From sequence record NC_129898.1: a DNA stretch of 64,000 nucleotides; one strand, given 5' to 3'. The notes under the pieces were generated by a model that did no database searches, was not told the DNA's origin, and saw only the letters and a program-made list of their open reading frames with translations. Numbering within the stretch: position 1 is the first letter of the stretch; every line of letters begins with the position of its first letter. Shown here piece by piece: positions 34,752 through 41,030 of the stretch. The position numbers and the translations under genes are program-made. Source of the stretch: a phage.

Positions 34752-35102
34752 TCAGTAGATGTTTTGTTTAATTTCTATTCCAAACTTTTTAAACGAGTCA
34801 GCAGCAAGCATGAATTTACGAGCCGCTGATGGGTTAGAAGTATGCACGAAAATCTTCACGTTGTCAACTACAGGAGGCTTACCAAATACAAATTTTTCCT
34901 CCAGTATGCAGAAGCAATCGTATCCTTCAAAAATTTCTCCCAAGTCGCTGTCAAAATGCCACTCAGAAACGCGTCTATATAGCTTTCCCTTGTCATTAAT
35001 GAAATCCATGAACTCAGAAGAACTCTTTAGCCAAAGAGCGTCTGGGAGCCCATAATTTGACGGATCTCTCAAATCATCTAGCCACACAATCAGCTTCTTC
35101 AT
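34752..35102 (-). CDS. hypothetical protein
   Basis: 116-aa ORF. Confidence 0.45.
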   Translation of the reverse strand: MKKLIVWLDDLRDPSNYGLPDALWLKSSSEFMDFINDKGKLYRRVSEWHFDSDLGEIFEGYDCFCILEEKFVFGKPPVVDNVKIFVHTSNPSAARKFMLAADSFKKFGIEIKQNIY

Positions 35103-36034
35103 TGCATATAGTCCTCGTTGTGGAAATAGCAGTCAAGTATCTCACGGCGTTCCTGCTCCAGGAGGCAATTCCACACATCTTCTGTGTAGTTTCTACGAAT
35201 GAAGTTTACCATGCCGTAAAACTCTTCGTCAACACGTTTAAAGATATCATCATCCCAAATCTTCCAAGCTCTACCCCTCATTACGACCTTCCGTGCCAGA
35301 TAGTAGGGAGACTTGATCTTTAGTTGCAGGTCATAAGGGTAGTAAGGCTTACGGATCATATACCCTTCGCCCCTTGTTTCTGCAGCCAACTCTTTTGCAT
35401 AGCTGAACGGAATTTCACGCACAGTGTGAGGACGTTTTGCACCAAGGTATTTGGCAATACCGTCTAAAGCTGCTTCTGGTAGCATTATTCCAGAATCATT
35501 GTATCGGCAACCGATCAAATAGGCACCATGATCTTCCTGAACAATATGCGGGTCTGAAGGGTGACAAATTTCAAACATGAATGTCATGTTTTCATGGCCC
35601 ATAACCTTCTTGATAAGATCTAAATTACCACATTGCTCCTGGATTGTTTCCTTTGCGAGGTTACAATATGGAGAATCAAGAGACCCTGTTGTTGAGAACA
35701 ACAGTTCACCTTTGTGAGATGATACCACACCAAGGAATCCGTTCTTTTTCTCTACCGCCGTCACAAGTTTATTGTCAGGCAGGTTGGTGGAATTTTCTCC
35801 CAAGTTAAACACTTTTGTGAAGGGCCATGCCACAACATTTCCTTCATTACCGACAACAATTCCTCGGCACTCTAGTAAACGCGGAGACAAATGCCATAGA
35901 TTGTTGTAAAATACTTTTCTGGCATATTTATAGATCTTTAACCCAAGATCTGGATAATACCGACTGGTTACAAGACCTTTATTCACTAAATCATCTGCAT
36001 TAAAATACTTCATCATACATTCCTCGTTTGTCAT
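35099..36034 (-). CDS. ligase-family nucleotidyltransferase, probable RNA ligase
   Basis: Motif I VEKKNGF (KxNG, no Arg at +5), motif IV EGYMIRK, motif V LKIKSP; 311 aa; a separate DNA ligase exists at 31342..32625. Confidence 0.55.
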   Translation of the reverse strand: MTNEECMMKYFNADDLVNKGLVTSRYYPDLGLKIYKYARKVFYNNLWHLSPRLLECRGIVVGNEGNVVAWPFTKVFNLGENSTNLPDNKLVTAVEKKNGFLGVVSSHKGELLFSTTGSLDSPYCNLAKETIQEQCGNLDLIKKVMGHENMTFMFEICHPSDPHIVQEDHGAYLIGCRYNDSGIMLPEAALDGIAKYLGAKRPHTVREIPFSYAKELAAETRGEGYMIRKPYYPYDLQLKIKSPYYLARKVVMRGRAWKIWDDDIFKRVDEEFYGMVNFIRRNYTEDVWNCLLEQERREILDCYFHNEDYMQ

Positions 36035-36077
36035 TTTGTCACTCTATCTTGCCACACAAATAAACTAGTGTCAACAC

Positions 36078-36106
36078 TTGAAATGAACAAAAGAGTTATG
36101 TATACT
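36078..36106 (+). promoter_or_regulatory. sigma70-like promoter for the plus-strand kinase operon
   Basis: TTGAAA (36078-36083), 17-nt spacer, TATACT (36101-36106); RBS GGAGG before ATG 36135. Confidence 0.55.
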
Positions 36107-36134
36107 ACCATTAAAATTAAAACGGAGGATTACT

Positions 36135-36545
36135 ATGTCTAAAATGCTATATATCGTGCGTGGTCTACCAGGTTCTGGCAAATCAACACTGGCAAATGCA
36201 CTATCTTTAGAGGGGCTGTACCCACATTTTGAGAACGACATGTTCTGGTACGACGACGATGGAAATTACAACTGGGATGCAAGTAAAGTAACACTTGCAG
36301 CAAAATGGTGCAAAGATAACGTAGAAGATATGATGCGTATGGGATACGACCGTGTCGTGGTAAGTAATACGTTTACAAAAGAAAAACATGTGCAAGAATA
36401 TGTTGACATGGCAATCAGTCATGGGTATAGTTATACTGTGATCGTGGTTGAAAACCGCCACGGTAATAAGAGCATTCATGATGTTCCAGATAGGGTTGTG
36501 GACCGTATGGAGCGTGAGCTTAAAAACTGCATTAAACTAAAATGA
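36135..36545 (+). CDS. P-loop kinase (polynucleotide-kinase-like)
   Basis: Walker A GLPGSGKST near the N-terminus; 136 aa; operonic with a metallophosphoesterase. Confidence 0.6.
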   Translation: MSKMLYIVRGLPGSGKSTLANALSLEGLYPHFENDMFWYDDDGNYNWDASKVTLAAKWCKDNVEDMMRMGYDRVVVSNTFTKEKHVQEYVDMAISHGYSYTVIVVENRHGNKSIHDVPDRVVDRMERELKNCIKLK

Positions 36546-36552
36546 GGGATGT

Positions 36553-37107
36553 ATGAAATATTTTGTAACAAGCGATACACACTTTCTCCACCAGCGAGTC
36601 ATGGAGTTTGATTCATGTCAAAAACACAGATCTCAGTATGATCACAATCTTGACAGTATGAACGAAGGAATCATTGCAGAGTGGAACTCTGTTGTATCAC
36701 CAGAAGACACTGTGTTTCACTTGGGCGATATTGCATGCACTAAGGATAAGAATATCAACAACTTATTTCCAGATATTCTAAATATGTTGAACGGACATAT
36801 TATTCTTGTTCGTGGTAACCATGACACAAGGACGACTGTCAGAATTATGAAAGAGTTCGGTAATGAGGTTGTAGATTATTACGAGCTTCGCCACAACAAG
36901 AATTTGATCTGTATGAGCCATTACCAGTTTGCAAAGTGGAACAGAAAGCCTCACGGATCAGTCCAACTGTTCGGTCATGCTCACGGAACCACACAGCAGT
37001 TGTTTGGCAGGCAGTTTGATGTCGGTTGGGATGTGTGGGGGAGACTCTTACCATTAGAAGAGGCATACCGTATTGCAATGAGTCTTGCTATTGACAGCGG
37101 GGAGTAA
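36553..37107 (+). CDS. calcineurin-like metallophosphoesterase
   Basis: SDTHF (DxH), LGDI (GD), GNHD, GHAHG motifs in order. Confidence 0.75.
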   Translation: MKYFVTSDTHFLHQRVMEFDSCQKHRSQYDHNLDSMNEGIIAEWNSVVSPEDTVFHLGDIACTKDKNINNLFPDILNMLNGHIILVRGNHDTRTTVRIMKEFGNEVVDYYELRHNKNLICMSHYQFAKWNRKPHGSVQLFGHAHGTTQQLFGRQFDVGWDVWGRLLPLEEAYRIAMSLAIDSGE

Positions 37108-37154
37108 TCCCTGCTATTTTAAAGAAAATTGCCACACAAGGAGAATCAGGAGAT

Positions 37155-37505
37155 ATGAAAGAGGAGGATAAGCTGCCATACCTTAAAGTCCCATTTGGAA
37201 TACTGTCTATGTCAAAAGTTTTGAATGATACAACTGGAGAGGTTGTTGTTCTTGACTTGTATGACAAGATCGTATACTGCTACCTGCACAACTGGTATAA
37301 GCTTGGAGGAAATTCACGCTTCACACCCAGCACAAGGAAAATTGCAGCAGATGTTGGGATAAAGAAAACAAAAGCAGCAGCGTGCGTTAAAACTTTAGAA
37401 TGTGCAGGAGTGGTTGAAATATCCACACAAGGGAGAGGTAAAAGATGCACATTTTCCAAAGTTTTGCCACCAGAAGAGGTTATTCGAATGTCAACAACTG
37501 GTTAG
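37155..37505 (+). CDS. helix-turn-helix DNA-binding protein candidate
   Basis: STRKIAADVGIKKTKAAACVKTLECAGVVE HTH-like segment; 116 aa; immediately upstream of the palindrome array. Confidence 0.45.
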   Translation: MKEEDKLPYLKVPFGILSMSKVLNDTTGEVVVLDLYDKIVYCYLHNWYKLGGNSRFTPSTRKIAADVGIKKTKAAACVKTLECAGVVEISTQGRGKRCTFSKVLPPEEVIRMSTTG

Positions 37506-37580
37506 ACCAGTAAAAACTTAAATATCTGTACTATAAGGATTCGTATGTTTTATGTCCATCCAAGAGCAGAGGGTAGTAAC

Positions 37581-37661
37581 TGTCCGTGATACGGACACTA
37601 CTGTCCGTCACGCGGACACATCTGCCCGTAATACGGACACTAACTGTCCGCAATACGGACA
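37581..37661. repeat. array of four 17-bp palindromic operator-like sites at ~21-bp pitch
   Basis: TGTCCGTGATACGGACA (37581-37597), TGTCCGTCACGCGGACA (37602-37618), TGCCCGTAATACGGACA (37623-37639), TGTCCGCAATACGGACA (37645-37661); half-sites TGTCCGT/ACGGACA. Confidence 0.7.
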
Positions 37662-37800
37662 CATAAAGAATATAACTAAAATAACTAAATAATAAAAAAA
37701 AATAAAAGATCTAGTAATTATGGTACTAAAGTACATATACTTAACTTATGTAGAATATACTAGATCCTAAGTACCATGTTTTAAATTTATTACTTACTAT

Positions 37801-38160
37801 TGGTAGTGTCGGCCCTTCATTGGCACTCGCCTACGAGGGGCGAGATGCCGGGCCTCCATAGTGCACACAATGACAGGAGTGCATACATGCAGGACTGTTA
37901 ACATGTGTGGGAGCGAAGCTATAGCGCAGGCCAAAGGCCGAGCACTAATGTGGACCACCGACGAAAGCTTGCCAGCGCCGTAAGGAGTCGGTTGAGAGCC
38001 TCCCGCGCGAGTTTAGTTAAAGTTTATGTGTGGAAACGGACAGGAAGGCCCCTAAATCGCCACACAGCTGCGTAAACTATACCAAGTAAGGCAATCGCAC
38101 CAGTTTGATAGAAAAGCTCGTTACAAAGCGATACAGTGAGTTTTTCTATAACTTGAAGAG
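37801..38160 (+). ncRNA. GC-rich ORF-free structured block (candidate non-coding RNA or leader)
   Basis: No ORF >=60 aa on either strand; nested helix GGCCC/GGGCC, GGCA/TGCC, CTCGCC/GGCGAG at 37811-37854. Confidence 0.25.
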
Positions 38161-38169
38161 GAGGCAGTT

Positions 38170-38748
38170 ATGAGTTCACGCAAAGATGACCGCGAAAAGA
38201 TTGCAAAACGTTATCAGAATGAAGAACAGATGGAGAAAACTTTCAAGTGGAAGCCAGGTTTCCAGCGTAATCATTCTAACGCTCGTGATCGTAAGCATCC
38301 GGATAAGTGGCTAACACCGCCAAATGATGGCATGCAGGTTGGTGATGAGAAGGAGCTATCGCCTGGAAAAGATGGCAACTACATTCGCACTAAGGACGCT
38401 GGTCCAAAGGATGACAGCTATCTTGTAGATAAGGTTCTTGATGGTATTGATGTAGATGTTGACACCACACGGAACTTTTTTCTTGGGTGGTATCGCACAG
38501 GTTTTTTCGACATCAAGGCCATTCGTCGTGTTTGTGATATTAAAAAGTCTGCATATGATGACGACTCGTTACATCGCACCCTGAGGCAATATTCAGAAAG
38601 ATATGGTCATCCGGTTATCACTCTTGACGATGTTGACGAAGTGATGTATCATGCAGAGGTTGTTGCAGGCAGATTTGGTGATGCATATCTTGATATCCTT
38701 TCTGCAAACGATGAGGTAATGTTGAATAAGATTTACTACGAACGTTGA
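38170..38748 (+). CDS. hypothetical protein
   Basis: 192 aa; GAGGAGG RBS upstream. Confidence 0.55.
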   Translation: MSSRKDDREKIAKRYQNEEQMEKTFKWKPGFQRNHSNARDRKHPDKWLTPPNDGMQVGDEKELSPGKDGNYIRTKDAGPKDDSYLVDKVLDGIDVDVDTTRNFFLGWYRTGFFDIKAIRRVCDIKKSAYDDDSLHRTLRQYSERYGHPVITLDDVDEVMYHAEVVAGRFGDAYLDILSANDEVMLNKIYYER

Positions 38749-39266: not shown

Positions 39267-39553
39267 GGTTGTTTTCGTGTATCATGATGAATATCCAATT
39301 TAAAGATGAATTTGATGGCTTTATCTCCGGATGCTTTGAAACAGGGTTCGGAGAATGCTGAGTTCCCATTAGAGGGCTTGATAGTGCACCACACTTAAAA
39401 TGGTAGGGGCAGCCAGCACATGACGATGTGACCCCAGCCAACCTGTAATAAGGTCGAGCCAAAGCGCGGTAATGGGTCTCTGGTAACCCACTTGTTGGGT
39501 CTTGTGGTCCAGGACGCTGGGCAAGTCGCAGGGAATACCACCCTGCGGCGAAC

Positions 39554-39599
39554 TTGACAATCAGTATTTGCCGTGATAAAATCCACCTATCACGTGATA
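39554..39599 (+). promoter_or_regulatory. sigma70-like promoter with overlapping 12-bp palindrome
   Basis: TTGACA (39554-39559), 17-nt spacer, TG-n-TAAAAT (39574-39582); perfect palindrome TATCACGTGATA (39588-39599). Confidence 0.55.
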
Positions 39600-40045: not shown

Positions 40046-40117
40046 GCCCTGTTAGCTTAGTGGATAAAGCAGCGGCCTTCTAAGCCGTTGACACTGGTTC
40101 GAGTCCAGTACGGGGTG
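40046..40117 (+). tRNA. tRNA-Arg (anticodon TCT)
   Basis: Acceptor GCCCTGT/ACGGGGT, D-stem GCTT/AAGC, anticodon loop CTTCTAA, T-loop TTCGAGT, CCA encoded. Confidence 0.8.
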
Positions 40118-40250
40118 CCAAGTTCTTTTTAATGTAGCTTACTTTAGCAGAGTAAATCTTCGGCAAGTGGCGGTAACCACTTTACCGATACCTCATAGTT
40201 AGTGGTGAGAACACTAGCTATTTTAAAAAGAATTTAAATATTAGTATTTA

Positions 40251-40335
40251 GGTGAGTTAATTCCGTAGGGGTAGCGGGGCAGACTGTAAATCTGTTATCA
40301 TTGCGATTCGGGTGGTTCGACTCCATCACTCACCA
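40251..40335 (+). tRNA. tRNA-Tyr (anticodon GTA), long variable arm
   Basis: Acceptor GGTGAGT/ACTCACC, anticodon loop CTGTAAA, T-loop TTCGACT, discriminator A, CCA encoded. Confidence 0.75.
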
Positions 40336-40452
40336 CCAAATTTATATTTTTAAATGCATAAATCATACAGATAATGGCATTGATATTTATCGTCGTTTAT
40401 ACTAGTCACTAACTGCTCGAAAATCAGTGTCATTATCAGTATTGTTTATAAA

Positions 40453-40540
40453 AGAGGGTAGGGAGCAATGGTGCTCAAGCGGTCTTGAAAACCGTCCCGT
40501 TGAGGATGACTCGATGATGGTTCGATTCCATTATCCTCTG
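40453..40540 (+). tRNA. tRNA-Ser (anticodon TGA), long variable arm
   Basis: Acceptor AGAGGGT/ATCCTCT, anticodon stem GCGGT/ACCGT with loop CTTGAAA, T-loop TTCGATT, discriminator G. Confidence 0.7.
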
Positions 40541-40640
40541 CCATATTGTTGACCTTGTAATTAAGCGAAAGCCGGAAGCAGAACCGGATTATCAAATGTT
40601 ACAGTCGTCATCGCCGACTAGCCACATGGTCAACATATTG

Positions 40641-40737
40641 CGCTAGGTAAGCCCTTTGGCAAGGGCGAGGATTTTTAATCCTGAAAATAGACGAGGTAGT
40701 CGTTGAATACATAGATGGTTCGATTCCATCACCTAGC
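40641..40737 (+). tRNA. atypical 97-nt tRNA-like element (anticodon loop TTTTTAA, possibly UUU)
   Basis: Perfect acceptor GCTAGGT/ACCTAGC, D-stem GCCC/GGGC, canonical T-arm GATGG-TTCGATT-CCATC, but ~30-nt variable region with ACGA-GGTAG-TCGT hairpin. Confidence 0.35.
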
Positions 40738-40743
40738 ACCTTT

Positions 40744-40816
40744 TGCTGATGTAGCACAATTGGCAGTGCAATTGATTTGTAATCAATAGGTTGCAGGTTC
40801 AAGTCCTGCCATCAGC
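40744..40816 (+). tRNA. tRNA-Thr (anticodon TGT)
   Basis: Acceptor GCTGATG/CATCAGC, D-stem GCAC/GTGC, anticodon stem ATTGA/TCAAT with loop TTTGTAA, T-loop TTCAAGT. Confidence 0.8.
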
Positions 40817-40820
40817 ACCA

Positions 40821-40892
40821 TGGCCCTGTAGCTGGAAGGTTCAAGCAAGCGACTCATAATCGCCAGACGGTGGTTCAATTCCACCCAGGGCC
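40821..40892 (+). tRNA. tRNA-Met or Ile2 (anticodon CAT), elongator-type
   Basis: Acceptor GGCCCTG/CAGGGCC with paired 1:72, anticodon loop CTCATAA, T-loop TTCAATT. Confidence 0.7.
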
Positions 40893-40907
40893 ACCAAATT
40901 ATAAATA

Positions 40908-40981
40908 CTCCGCGTAGCTCAGCTTGGTAGAGCGCCTGATTTGGGATCAGGAGGTCGAGTGTTCGAATCACTCCGTGGAGA
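40908..40981 (+). tRNA. tRNA-Pro (anticodon TGG)
   Basis: Acceptor CTCCGCG/CGTGGAG (C1:G72), D-arm GCTCAGCTTGGTAGAGC, anticodon stem CCTGA/TCAGG with loop TTTGGGA, T-loop TTCGAAT. Confidence 0.8.
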
Positions 40982-41030
40982 CCACCTTTAGTTATACTTT
41001 AAACATATACACACAAAAGGAACCTTTAAA

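What the first reader, a model, noticed from the sequence alone, without database searches (positions are those of the whole stretch)
37801..38160. 360-bp GC-rich ORF-free block with nested helices: candidate structured RNA
Neither strand has an ORF of 60 aa or more across 37506-38169, and base composition shifts to visibly GC-richer than the flanks. A three-segment nested helix is readable at 37811-37854 (GGCCC/GGGCC, GGCA/TGCC, CTCGCC/GGCGAG). The block ends at the GAGGAGG RBS of 38170..38748, so it may be a long structured 5' leader (riboswitch or thermosensor-like) or an independent ncRNA. Large structured RNAs of unknown function are known to occur near tRNA genes in phages; whether this belongs to any known class cannot be decided by eye.
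Basis: seen in the sequence. Interest (0 to 1): 0.6.

Follow-up and report, generated by a model that had tools for sequence, protein, structure and literature searches.

The report
Structured noncoding element shared with satellites
The GC-rich gap in this rV5-like E. coli phage is a real, non-coding, hairpin-rich element, most likely a new structured RNA, that is conserved in three phage lineages and copied by a family of undescribed 13-kb capsid-carrying plasmids that look like satellites of these phages.

Summary
Window 37806-38169 is ORF-free and GC-rich (0.54-0.58 against 0.30-0.46 in the flanks), and the helix at 37811-37854 is real.

The window is an rV5-like phage (Vequintavirus). The block is conserved in 118 phage records and in two more distant phage lineages. 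The ORF that rV5 annotates inside it is not coding.

Two units carry strong compensatory evidence:
- Hairpin 1: 4 of 15 pairs changed on both sides, none broken.
- A three-way unit at 37957-37992: 7 of 11 pairs changed on both sides, with a GNRA loop kept as GUAA, GGAA or GGGA.

No Rfam 15 family matches.

The core also occurs in 13.2-14.4 kb circular E. coli plasmids that carry a capsid gene and rV5-related tail genes. There it sits in a different gene context, inside an array of hairpin modules.

It is therefore not a leader private to the downstream gene. In all lineages it follows a winged-helix gene, that gene's palindromic repeats and an AT-rich stretch.

Best reading: a new structured RNA domain acting in cis with a shared factor. 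A single-stranded-DNA or replication-origin role is not excluded. Function is unknown.

The parts
37155..37505 (+). Context: 116-aa winged-helix protein gene (rV5 gp075, annotated 'replication initiation protein' or 'putative transcriptional regulator')
   Evidence: Annotation. Pfam gives HTH_36 and DUF6945 just below cut-off. A winged-helix-like gene precedes the element in the other two phage lineages as well.
37580..37662 (.). Four palindromic 19-mers (CTGTCCGTGATACGGACAC type) spaced 21-22 bp apart: operator- or iteron-like repeats
   Evidence: Read. The L004/L009 lineage has different palindromes (TGATACATATTTGTATCAGA type). The L008 lineage has three copies of GGGCCAAATAATGGCCC.
37663..37805 (.). 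AT-rich spacer (GC 0.30) with two interleaved inverted repeats (GATCTAGTA/TACTAGATC and ATGGTACT/AGTACCAT) and an A9 run
   Evidence: It is not alignable between phage lineages; conservation starts sharply after it.
37806..38094 (+). The conserved structured domain itself
   Evidence: 90-99% identical in 118 Vequintavirus records. 84% identical in the L004/L009 lineage, with a sharp 5' boundary at GTCGGCCC. A distant homologue exists in L008 and L038-L040.
37811..37854 (+). Hairpin 1: three nested helices (15 bp), a conserved 6-nt internal loop UUCAWUG, a bulged A and a 7-8 nt apical loop
   Evidence: Pair counts. Compensatory changes at 4 different pairs in the satellite variants L010 and L034, none broken.
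37858..37903 (+). Variable hairpin region; 37867-37884 is deleted in rV5 and in Pr121LW
   Evidence: Alignment. CAYACAUG (37883-90) can pair with CAUGUGUG (37902-09), an alternative to P1.
37904..37913 (+). UGUGUGGGAG: invariant motif and proposed 5' strand of closing helix P1
   Evidence: Kept in all three phage lineages and in the satellites. In the satellites and in L038 every hairpin module starts with it.
37912..37947 (+). P3 region: AGC-GAA-GCU mini-hairpin plus hairpin UAGCGCAGGCC-AAA-GGCCGAGCACUA
   Evidence: Predicted. Replaced by other hairpins at the same place in L008 (CACC...GGUG) and in L028 (AGC GUA GUGC GAA GCAC GUA GCU). Single changes both keep and break pairs, so support is weak.
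37945..37956 (+). Conserved joiner CUAAUGUGGACC
   Evidence: AAUGUGG is kept in phages, satellites and L008-type phages.
37957..37992 (+). P2 three-way unit: a 6-bp stem ACCGAC/GUCGGU enclosing GCU-UGCC-AGC and CC-GNRA-GG
   Evidence: 7 of 11 pairs changed on both sides, 99.4% of cells paired, 0/500 shuffles reach the observed value. A-U, G.U and G-C occur in series at the outer pair. The loop is GUAA, GGAA or GGGA.
38000..38009 (+). CUCCCGCGCG: proposed 3' strand of P1
   Evidence: Predicted to pair with 37904-13 through three G.U pairs. L004 has GGAAGA/UCUUCC and L008 has GUGUGG/CUGCGC at the same places. No clean compensatory proof.
38010..38094 (+). Variable 3' part, with TGTGTGG (38027-33) facing CCACACA (38060-66) and the motif CCCCTAAATCGC (38049-60)
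   Evidence: Most variable stretch. The CTAAAT(C/G)GC and TAAGGCAA motifs recur in the satellites, and there is weak collinear similarity to L008-type phages.
38095..38169 (+). Segment specific to the downstream gene: hairpin AUAGAAAAGCUC/GAGUUUUUCUAU (38108-38149) and Shine-Dalgarno GAGGAGG (38160-66)
   Evidence: Nearly invariant between the rV5 and L004/L009 lineages. Absent from the satellites.
37905..38075 (+). 56-codon ORF annotated as rV5 ORF78 (rv5_gp074): not a gene
   Evidence: Variable columns by codon position are 18/21/23. There is an in-frame stop in L004 and a frameshift in L009.

Best explanation
Window 37806-38094 encodes a structured RNA domain of a family not yet described. 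It is made as part of the rightward transcript that leaves a regulatory cassette. That cassette consists of a winged-helix gene, its palindromic repeats and an AT-rich stretch.

The domain folds into a long irregular hairpin (hairpin 1) and a multi-helix junction. The junction consists of:
- a G.U-rich closing helix P1 (UGUGUGGGAG with CUCCCGCGCG);
- replaceable hairpins;
- a conserved joiner (CUAAUGUGG);
- a three-way unit (P2) capped by a GNRA loop.

I propose that it acts in cis as a docking platform for one factor, from the host or from the helper phage, that is common to all carriers. That factor would set the fate of the transcript that continues into the long downstream operon, by read-through, processing or stability.

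The 13-kb plasmid-like satellites carry the same core upstream of their own replication-and-tail operon. This would tie that operon to the same factor.

Shown: the block is non-coding, it is conserved, its helices are kept by compensatory change, and it is shared with the satellites in another gene context.

Inferred: the molecule is RNA, the action is in cis, and there is a partner factor.
For: Non-coding.

Conservation:
- 118 phage records.
- The L004/L009 lineage at 84% identity, with a sharp 5' edge.
- L008 and L038-L040, a lineage whose gp073 homologue is only 50% identical.

Structure:
- Hairpin 1 has 4 of 15 pairs changed on both sides.
- The P2 unit has 7 of 11 pairs changed on both sides, with 99.4% of cells paired.

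RNA-like features on the + strand:
- The GNRA loop is kept as GUAA, GGAA or GGGA.
- GAA becomes GAUA in L036.
- A-U, G.U and G-C occur in series at the outer P2 pair.
- P2 is about twice as stable as RNA (-11.7 kcal/mol) as it is as DNA (-6.2 kcal/mol, z -0.9).
- The whole-block z-score is -2.7 on + and -2.0 on -.
- Hairpin 1 has a conserved bulge and a conserved asymmetric internal loop.

Transcription:
- The block is co-oriented with the flanking genes, and no + strand terminator lies between 37100 and 40100, so it must be transcribed.
- It lies near the start of rV5's long transcription unit, genes 81 to 27, which runs into the late genes (PMC3606486).
- In the satellites the array is co-oriented with the operon that follows.
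- L010-type satellites have three palindromic operators and a promoter-like site about 270 nt upstream of hairpin 1.

Independence from gp073.
Against: - There is no experimental transcript data.
- No promoter or terminator delimits the RNA.
- Satellites and L008-type phages have strong sigma-70-like promoters between the element and the next genes. The element therefore need not be in those genes' main mRNA.
- Predicted stems hold 223 Watson-Crick pairs against 12 G.U pairs, and 15 of 28 hairpin loops are 3 nt long. That is more typical of DNA palindromes than of natural RNAs.
- One satellite (L028) carries a module in inverted orientation.
- L028 and L036 replace P2 with an unrelated hairpin.
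- P1 has no clean compensatory proof.
- The element always adjoins a repeat plus AT-rich cassette that could be a replication origin.
- The alignment used was fitted to the model.
Confidence: 0.42

Rival explanations
1. An element of the replication origin that works as folded single-stranded DNA or as a primer RNA. Under this reading the winged-helix protein is an initiator, the repeats are its sites and the AT-rich stretch is the unwinding element. The hairpins on the displaced + strand would then serve as a priming or helicase-loading signal, like a G4-type single-strand initiation site or a primosome assembly site, for a host or helper replisome. The satellites copy that signal.
For: - The same order recurs in three phage lineages and, with direct-repeat iterons and a Rep-like gene, in the satellites: winged-helix gene, repeats, AT-rich stretch, GC-rich hairpins.
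- Repeats and proteins differ between lineages while the hairpin element stays the same.
- Stems are nearly all Watson-Crick and 3-nt loops dominate.
- Hairpin 1 is equally stable as DNA on both strands.
- TGTGTGG is the most over-represented heptamer in each of the three satellites ranked. Six satellites hold 14-19 copies each, against about 1.4 expected in the three where this was calculated.
- TGTGTGG also clusters at 35.0-38.1 kb of the window (10 of 21 sites).
- The heptamer's orientation flips at this locus in the rV5 and L004/L009 phages and in the satellites.
- The satellites' cumulative GC-skew minimum lies 290-370 nt from the core in 4 of 5.
- rV5 has a T7-like primase-helicase and a PolA-type polymerase (PMC3606486).
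- GTGTC or GGGTC, which are T7-type primase sites (my own knowledge), sits at the 5' edge of the element.
Against: - The repeats in the phages are palindromes, which suggests operators for a dimeric repressor rather than iterons.
- Keeping a GNRA loop means little for DNA.
- P2 is marginal as DNA (-6.2 kcal/mol, z -0.9).
- The heptamer shows no polarity in L008.
- GC skew and heptamer orientation are confounded with gene orientation in the satellites.
- The rV5 authors found no skew signal here other than the switch of transcription direction 1.5 kb to the left.
Confidence: 0.25
2. A trans-acting RNA, for example a sponge or decoy. Several single-stranded UGUGUGGG motifs would be displayed between stable hairpins and would titrate an RNA-binding protein or a complementary RNA. 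The satellites would carry expanded arrays to out-compete or manipulate the helper.
For: - Satellites carry 2-5 modules, each preceded by TGTGTGGG, in varying numbers and combinations but in a conserved order.
- One phage (L038) also has an extra module flanked by a 12-nt repeat.
- This layout resembles protein-sponge RNAs such as CsrB (my own knowledge).
Against: - No discrete transcription unit is visible.
- The phage copy has only one fully conserved motif copy.
- The heptamer is enriched all over the satellite DNA, on both strands and inside genes. That points to a DNA-level meaning.
- No Rfam CsrB-like match was found.
Confidence: 0.13
3. A packaging recognition (pac) site that the helper's terminase uses and the satellites copy.
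For: - rV5-like phages package by the headful mechanism and are circularly permuted (PMC8407724, PMC13211470).
- The satellites have no terminase or portal gene among their annotated genes, so they must offer a helper-recognised site.
- The element is the only non-coding DNA shared with the helper.
Against: - Compensatory change that keeps hairpins while the stem sequence changes is not what a duplex protein-binding site predicts.
- L028- and L036-type satellites lack the shared P2 loop.
- The terminase gene is about 4.5 kb away in L009.
- No terminus data place a pac site here.
Confidence: 0.07
4. One reading: a riboswitch or RNA thermometer controlling translation of 38170..38748.
For: The block runs up to the Shine-Dalgarno sequence. 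A conserved hairpin (38108-38149) sits just before it. RNAalifold proposes pairing of CCCUUCA (37813-19) with UGAAGAGG at the ribosome-binding site.
Against: - That long-range pairing is broken in L004 and L009.
- The conserved core exists without this gene in the satellites.
- In L008 and L040 the core lies far from, or opposite to, the gene's homologue.
- No Rfam riboswitch matches.
Confidence: 0.04

Closest known systems
Processive antitermination RNA sites (lambda nut boxA/boxB; HK022 put)
   Same: Promoter-proximal position at the head of a long operon. Small hairpins whose stems covary while loops and joiners stay fixed. A GNRA-type loop as the recognition feature. Action in cis on the transcribing complex, which here is inferred only.
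   Different: This element is much larger (about 290 nt against 15-70 nt). It has no boxA-like sequence and no N-like gene has been identified. Terminator read-through has not been shown. The resemblance is one of position and design only.
Helper cis-elements copied by satellites (P2 cos in P4; pac sites in SaPIs and PICIs)
   Same: A non-coding element shared between a helper phage and a small element that carries only part of a virion gene set.
   Different: Those are duplex DNA sites for terminase. Here the shared piece is kept as hairpins with compensatory change. The helper is a virulent rV5-like myovirus and the satellites are plasmids without an integrase. The satellite-helper relation itself has not been tested.
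Origin-linked structured nucleic acids (ColE1 RNA II pre-primer; G4-type single-strand initiation signals of phage G4 and plasmids R1/R100)
   Same: A cluster of stable hairpins next to a repeat plus AT-rich cassette. Three-hairpin modules. Presence on plasmids to which the PLSDB/MOB-suite typing assigns no replicon type.
   Different: No sequence similarity. The sense direction leads away from the repeats, whereas RNA II runs towards the origin. Priming has not been shown.
Large structured RNAs of phages in Rfam (GOLLD, ROOL, HEARO and others)
   Same: A GC-rich, ORF-free, structured block in a phage genome not far from tRNA genes.
   Different: No match to any of the 4227 Rfam 15 models, even at E-values up to 10. 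It is also smaller than those RNAs.

Membership tests
Any Rfam 15 family (riboswitches, GOLLD/ROOL, C4/CI antisense RNA, 6S, CsrB, tmRNA, RNase P, introns) | Covariance-model score at or above the family's gathering threshold | tested here: not met
   Whole window at gathering threshold: only six tRNA hits. Region 37400-38300 at E-values up to 10: best hit is rli43 at 18.8 bits against a cut-off of 100. Satellites: nothing.
Protein-coding gene (rV5 ORF78 / rv5_gp074) | Reading frame kept open in relatives, with substitutions concentrated at third codon positions | tested here: not met
   In-frame stop in L004, frameshift in L009, and variable columns of 18/21/23 by codon position.
Riboswitch or RNA thermometer leader of 38170..38748 | The element travels with the regulated gene, and an expression platform masks its ribosome-binding site | tested here: not met
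   The core is present without the gene in the satellites. In L008 the core is 5.4 kb from the homologue, and only about 60 nt of non-coding sequence lie in front of that homologue. In L040 the arrangement is on the opposite strand. The proposed pairing that masks the ribosome-binding site is broken in L004 and L009.
Independent small RNA gene | Its own promoter and an intrinsic terminator bounding the conserved block | tested here: not met
   No sigma-70-like promoter within 250 nt upstream and no + strand terminator. The -10-like TACTAT at 37796-37801 is not kept in L004 or L010.
Structured RNA in general | Helices kept by compensatory double substitutions across diverged copies | tested here: met
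   Hairpin 1: 4 of 15 pairs. P2 unit: 7 of 11 pairs, 99.4% of cells paired, and 0/500 shuffles reach the observed value. The same result would hold for single-stranded DNA.
Structured RNA in general | RNA-specific motifs and strand-specific G.U tolerance | tested here: inconclusive
   For RNA: the GNRA loop is kept as GUAA, GGAA or GGGA, and G.U intermediates occur on the + strand. Against RNA: only 12 G.U among 235 predicted pairs, and 15 of 28 loops are 3 nt long.
nut/put-type antitermination site | Lies in the transcript between a promoter and terminators, at the head of a long operon | tested here: inconclusive
   The position fits. However, strong promoters lie downstream of the element in the satellites and in L008-type phages.
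nut/put-type antitermination site | Confers terminator read-through on RNA polymerase | not testable with these tools
   This needs reporter or in vitro transcription assays.
Replication origin or single-strand initiation signal | Adjacent initiator gene, initiator binding repeats and an AT-rich unwinding element | tested here: inconclusive
   The layout is present in all lineages. However, the phage repeats are palindromes, and the winged-helix hits (HTH_36) fall below Pfam's cut-off.
Replication origin or single-strand initiation signal | DNA synthesis starts here | not testable with these tools
   No replication data. The rV5 paper's skew analysis gave only switches of transcription direction.
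pac site | The first terminase cut of a packaging series maps here | not testable with these tools
   The papers read report only the packaging mode, headful with circular permutation.
Phage satellite (for the 13-kb plasmids) | Partial virion gene set related to a helper, no terminase or portal, own replication control | tested here: met
   Major capsid (phrog_29), Dit-like, Neck1/tail completion and tape-measure proteins, a Rep-like protein of 283-304 aa and iterons. Dit and Neck1 are 48-55% identical to the window's proteins.
Phage satellite (for the 13-kb plasmids) | Mobilised by a helper phage | not testable with these tools
   No experiment and no paper was found.

The most novel reading that the evidence does not exclude
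The element is the RNA handle of a helper-satellite system that has not been described. A structured RNA of virulent rV5-like myoviruses is bound by a phage or host factor to control a long operon or to start replication. A widespread family of 13-kb capsid- and tail-gene-bearing E. coli plasmids has captured and multiplied this RNA module so as to plug into the same machinery. If so, helper recognition by a satellite would be RNA-structure based rather than based on a duplex DNA site.
Probability: 0.2. Interest if true: 0.85.

Novelty: new variant of a known kind. Interest (0 to 1): 0.64.

Why it matters
rV5-like phages (Vequintavirus) are widely used as therapy and biocontrol candidates, yet this 360-bp block is either left blank or mis-annotated as small proteins in their records.

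This work shows a conserved, structure-constrained element that defines a new sequence and structure family across at least three phage lineages.

Its presence in a common but undescribed family of 13-kb plasmids with capsid and tail genes gives two things:
- a testable handle on how a satellite could recognise a virulent myovirus helper;
- a natural set of swap-and-compensate variants for experiments.

If the element proves to be a replication or read-through signal, it would also locate the control region of these phages, which is currently unknown.

Tried and rejected
- **Rfam.** Searched at gathering and at permissive thresholds on the window, the block, block 2 and the satellites. Nothing was found.
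- **Coding potential of the 56-codon ORF.** Rejected.
- **Host-derived fragment.** No E. coli chromosome match; all six matching places are on plasmids.
- **More distant relatives through the downstream protein.** The gene is confined to Vequintavirus, apart from one homologue at 50% identity that has no block in front of it.
- **Synteny around the phosphoesterase gene in other Vequintavirinae genera** (KB57 and NINP13076). The gene order differs and the covariance model gave no hit.
- **Exact-pattern scans.**
  - The strict loop pattern found nothing in GTDB genomes and only the known contig in IMG/VR.
  - It found 7 metagenome contigs, one of them (L014) a chance hit in GC-rich coding DNA.
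  - The relaxed three-part pattern found 3 new phage contigs. It also gave 2 hits in unrelated bacterial genome bins, which I take to be chance.
- **Similarity to SRP (4.5S) RNA, to the CRISPR I-E repeat and to DnaA boxes**, noticed by eye. Dropped: the patches are not collinear, they fall in covarying stems, or no model hit supports them.
- **An RNA on the minus strand.** Terminator-like hairpins with T-runs exist on that strand at the AT-rich edge. However, no convincing promoter was found, and G.U evidence and GNRA loops favour the + strand.
- **Origin-centred polarity of TGTGTGG.** Seen in the rV5-type and L004/L009 phages and in the satellites but not in L008. It is kept only as support for a rival.
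- **A phage counterpart of the L028-type core.** None in the phage collection.
- **Literature.** Searches for the satellites, the motif or an rV5 non-coding RNA found nothing relevant.
Full report
**What the window is**

BLAST of 37500-38200 against phage records finds 118 records that cover the query at 89-99% identity. Nearly all are Escherichia phages of the genus Vequintavirus (rV5, FV3, Murica, several BASEL phages).

The annotated neighbours are:
- leftwards: an RNA ligase;
- rightwards: a polynucleotide kinase, a phosphoesterase and a 116-aa winged-helix protein (rV5 gp075, called 'replication initiation protein' or 'putative transcriptional regulator');
- then the gap;
- then a 192-aa hypothetical protein (gp073, 38170..38748), small genes and a tRNA cluster.

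The tRNA cluster is at 40046-40984.

**Checking the observation**

- No ORF of 60 aa or more crosses 37506-38169.
- GC rises to 0.575 and 0.535 in 37800-38099, from 0.30 just upstream.
- The nested helix is at the stated coordinates.
- As RNA the block folds better than shuffles on the + strand (z -2.7) and slightly less so on the - strand (z -2.0).

**Not a gene**

Some records annotate 37905..38075 (rV5 ORF78) and other mini-ORFs here. I aligned fifteen phage copies and found the following:
- the variable columns fall evenly on codon positions (18/21/23);
- the frame has a stop in L004;
- the frame is shifted in L009.

**Conservation has a sharp edge**

A more distant phage lineage (IMG/VR contig L004, Logan contig L009) has a gp073 that is 82% identical. 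It aligns at 84% from GTCGGCCC (37808) to the start codon. Upstream of that point nothing aligns. That lineage has a different winged-helix gene and different palindromic repeats.

Within the block:
- 37808-37857, 37904-38009 and 38095-38169 are nearly invariant;
- 37858-37903 and 38010-38094 vary;
- rV5 and Pr121LW lack 37867-37884.

**The unexpected relatives**

Searching E. coli genomes and plasmids with the block gave no chromosomal hit. It did hit small circular 'plasmids' of 13.2-13.7 kb, and a 39.6-kb trimer of the same element.

These elements carry:
- a major capsid gene;
- a Dit-like tail protein;
- a tail-completion/Neck1 protein;
- a tape-measure protein;
- a Rep-like winged-helix protein;
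- an HTH_7 protein.

No terminase, portal or integrase is among their annotated genes.

Their Dit and Neck1 proteins are 48-55% identical to proteins encoded in this window. A protein search with the Rep-like protein finds 48 clusters, nearly all on E. coli contigs of 13.4-14.4 kb. I read these elements as plasmid-borne satellites of rV5-like phages. This is an inference: I found no paper on them.

Each satellite has a non-coding region of 2.2-2.4 kb. It contains direct-repeat iterons and an array of small hairpin modules, each preceded by TGTGTGGG. The array ends in a core that matches window 37947-38009. A subset (L010, L029-L035, L037) also has hairpin 1. Nothing else in that region matches any phage.

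**Structure evidence**

Hairpin 1 (37811-37854):
- The satellite variants change G-C to U-A at two pairs (L010). L034 has three changed pairs, one of them shared with L010.
- That makes 4 different pairs of 15, with every stem substitution compensated.

P2 (37957-37992):
- The phage stem ACCGAC/GUCGGU becomes GCUGCC/GGCAGC in the satellites. There is a G.U intermediate in L004, L009 and L022.
- A covariance model of the core then found a distant copy in L008. This is the contig whose gp073 homologue is only 50% identical (29.4 bits).
- A relaxed pattern found three more phage contigs of that type.
- In those contigs the stem is GACGGC/GCCGUC. The inner mini-helix GCU/AGC is flipped to AGC/GCU. 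The capping loop is GGGA or GGAA, where the other lineages have GUAA or GGAA, so the GNRA pattern is always kept.
- On the model-fitted alignment, 7 of 11 pairs have changes on both sides, 99.4% of cells pair and 0/500 shuffles reach the observed value. The fitting biases this count somewhat.

The wider junction:
- The motif UGUGUGGGAG and the joiner CUAAUGUGG are kept in all lineages.
- A closing helix P1 can always form, but through G.U pairs and without clean compensatory proof. It is UGUGUGGGAG/CUCCCGCGCG in the window, GGAAGA/UCUUCC in L004 and GUGUGG/CUGCGC in L008.
- Satellites L028 and L036 put an unrelated hairpin where P2 sits. This fits a junction that needs a helix there.

**RNA or DNA?**

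For RNA on the + strand:
- the GNRA loop;
- a GAA to GAUA loop change in L036;
- G.U intermediates;
- the conserved bulge and internal loop of hairpin 1;
- the better RNA than DNA stability of P2;
- certain transcription, since no terminator is present.

Against RNA:
- only 12 G.U among 235 predicted pairs, and 15 of 28 loops are 3 nt long;
- a module inverted in L028;
- hairpin 1 folds equally well as DNA on either strand.

TGTGTGG looks like a DNA-level motif:
- it is the most over-represented heptamer in each of the three satellites ranked;
- six satellites hold 14-19 copies each, against about 1.4 expected in the three where this was calculated;
- the copies lie on both strands and inside genes;
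- ten of the window's 21 sites cluster at 35.0-38.1 kb.

I put RNA at roughly two in three.

**Context and mechanism**

In all three phage lineages the element follows the same cassette: a winged-helix gene, that lineage's own palindromic repeats and an AT-rich stretch. The genes downstream differ. In L040 the gp073-like cluster is even on the other strand. So the unit is the cassette plus the element, not the element plus gp073.

In rV5 this is near the head of the long transcription unit that runs into the late genes (PMC3606486). In the satellites it heads the Rep-and-tail operon.

My preferred reading is a cis-acting RNA platform for a shared factor that controls the continuing transcript. 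The satellites would have copied it to couple themselves to that factor.

The main rival is an origin-linked element, either single-stranded DNA or a primer RNA. In its favour:
- the cassette layout;
- the orientation flip of the heptamer at this locus in most lineages, though not in L008;
- the satellites' GC-skew minimum.

A pac site, a trans-acting sponge RNA and a gp073-specific riboswitch are less likely, for the reasons given with each rival.

The last 75 nt (38095-38169) are conserved only in phages that have gp073 directly downstream. They probably form that gene's own leader hairpin.

**Comparison with what is known, and verdict**

- No Rfam 15 family matches.
- The library holds no paper on it.
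- It resembles nut/put sites in position and design.
- It resembles the P4 cos and SaPI pac sites in being shared between helper and satellite.
- It resembles RNA II and single-strand initiation signals in sitting next to a repeat plus AT-rich cassette.
- It meets the defining, testable features of none of them.

I class it as a real, new structured element. Its kind, a cis-acting structured nucleic acid of a phage control region that satellites have copied, is known. Its family and its helper-satellite setting are new.

Noticed in passing
window 39285-39555: A second GC-rich, ORF-free block lies just upstream of a strong sigma-70-like promoter (TTGACA-17-TAAAAT, 39554-39582). It is 92.6% identical to the L004/L009 lineage, which is more than block 1. 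RNAalifold on six copies gives 86 pairs. Five of them have compensatory double changes, and there are many G.U pairs. No Rfam match even at E-values up to 5. It looks like another structured RNA that has not been described, and it is absent from the satellites.
   Followed up: partly
L010, L011, L012, L015, L019-L021, L028-L037 (for example NZ_CP020521.1, NZ_CP035869.1, CP134895.1): A family of 13.2-14.4 kb circular, non-mobilizable E. coli plasmids. They carry a major capsid gene, Dit-like, Neck1-like and tape-measure genes, a Rep-like gene with iterons, and a non-coding region of 2.2-2.4 kb. No terminase, portal or integrase is annotated. There are 48 Rep clusters in public assemblies. They are probably satellites of rV5-like phages. 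No description was found in the literature searched.
   Followed up: partly
window 35082-38066; the whole of L010, L019 and L028: TGTGTGG is the most over-represented heptamer in each of the three satellites ranked. Six satellites hold 14-19 copies each, against about 1.4 expected in the three where this was calculated. In the window, 10 of 21 sites fall within 3 kb around this locus. Orientation flips at the AT-rich edge in the rV5 and L004/L009 phages and in the satellites, but not in L008. Its meaning is unknown.
   Followed up: partly
satellite arrays (L012 4740-5000 minus strand; L019 7690-7900 minus strand); L038 2650-2790 minus strand: Hairpin modules are flanked by the repeat (GAGT)TGTGTGGG. 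They are present or absent in different combinations but in a conserved order. One is inverted in L028, and one extra module occurs in the phage contig L038. This looks like gain and loss by recombination between the short repeats.
   Followed up: partly
window 37580-37662: Four palindromic 19-mers, 21-22 bp apart, lie directly after the winged-helix gene 37155..37505. The L004/L009 and L008 lineages have different palindromes together with different winged-helix proteins, which suggests matched protein-site pairs.
   Followed up: partly
window 40251-40335, 40453-40543, 40642-40740: The tRNA callers disagree. Rfam calls 40251-40335 (39 bits) but ARAGORN does not. ARAGORN calls a tRNA-Ser at 40453-40543 but Rfam does not. 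At 40642-40740 there is an over-long tRNA-like gene with a four-base anticodon in ARAGORN (37.5 bits in Rfam), which is annotated tRNA-Lys in relatives.
   Followed up: no
phage records MG0656xx: Eighteen records named 'Campylobacter phage' (host C. jejuni) are 91-95% identical to this E. coli rV5-like region. They are probably mislabelled or contaminant assemblies.
   Followed up: no
L009 3513-4196 and L040 4873-5367: Lineage-specific insertions lie next to the element. L009 has a KilA-N/ANT gene between the kinase and the phosphoesterase. L040 has a cysteine- and histidine-rich 164-aa ORF directly downstream of the element; it resembles an HNH nuclease by eye but has no Pfam hit.
   Followed up: no
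L010 12960-13120 (minus strand): L010-type satellites have three copies of a palindromic operator-like site (ATATCAAnnTGATAT) followed by a promoter-like site (TAGAAA-16-TATACT), about 270 nt upstream of hairpin 1. A further hairpin (CTAAC/GTTAG or CTGAC/GTCAG around ATCC) shows a compensatory change and also occurs upstream of the element in the L004 phage lineage.
   Followed up: no
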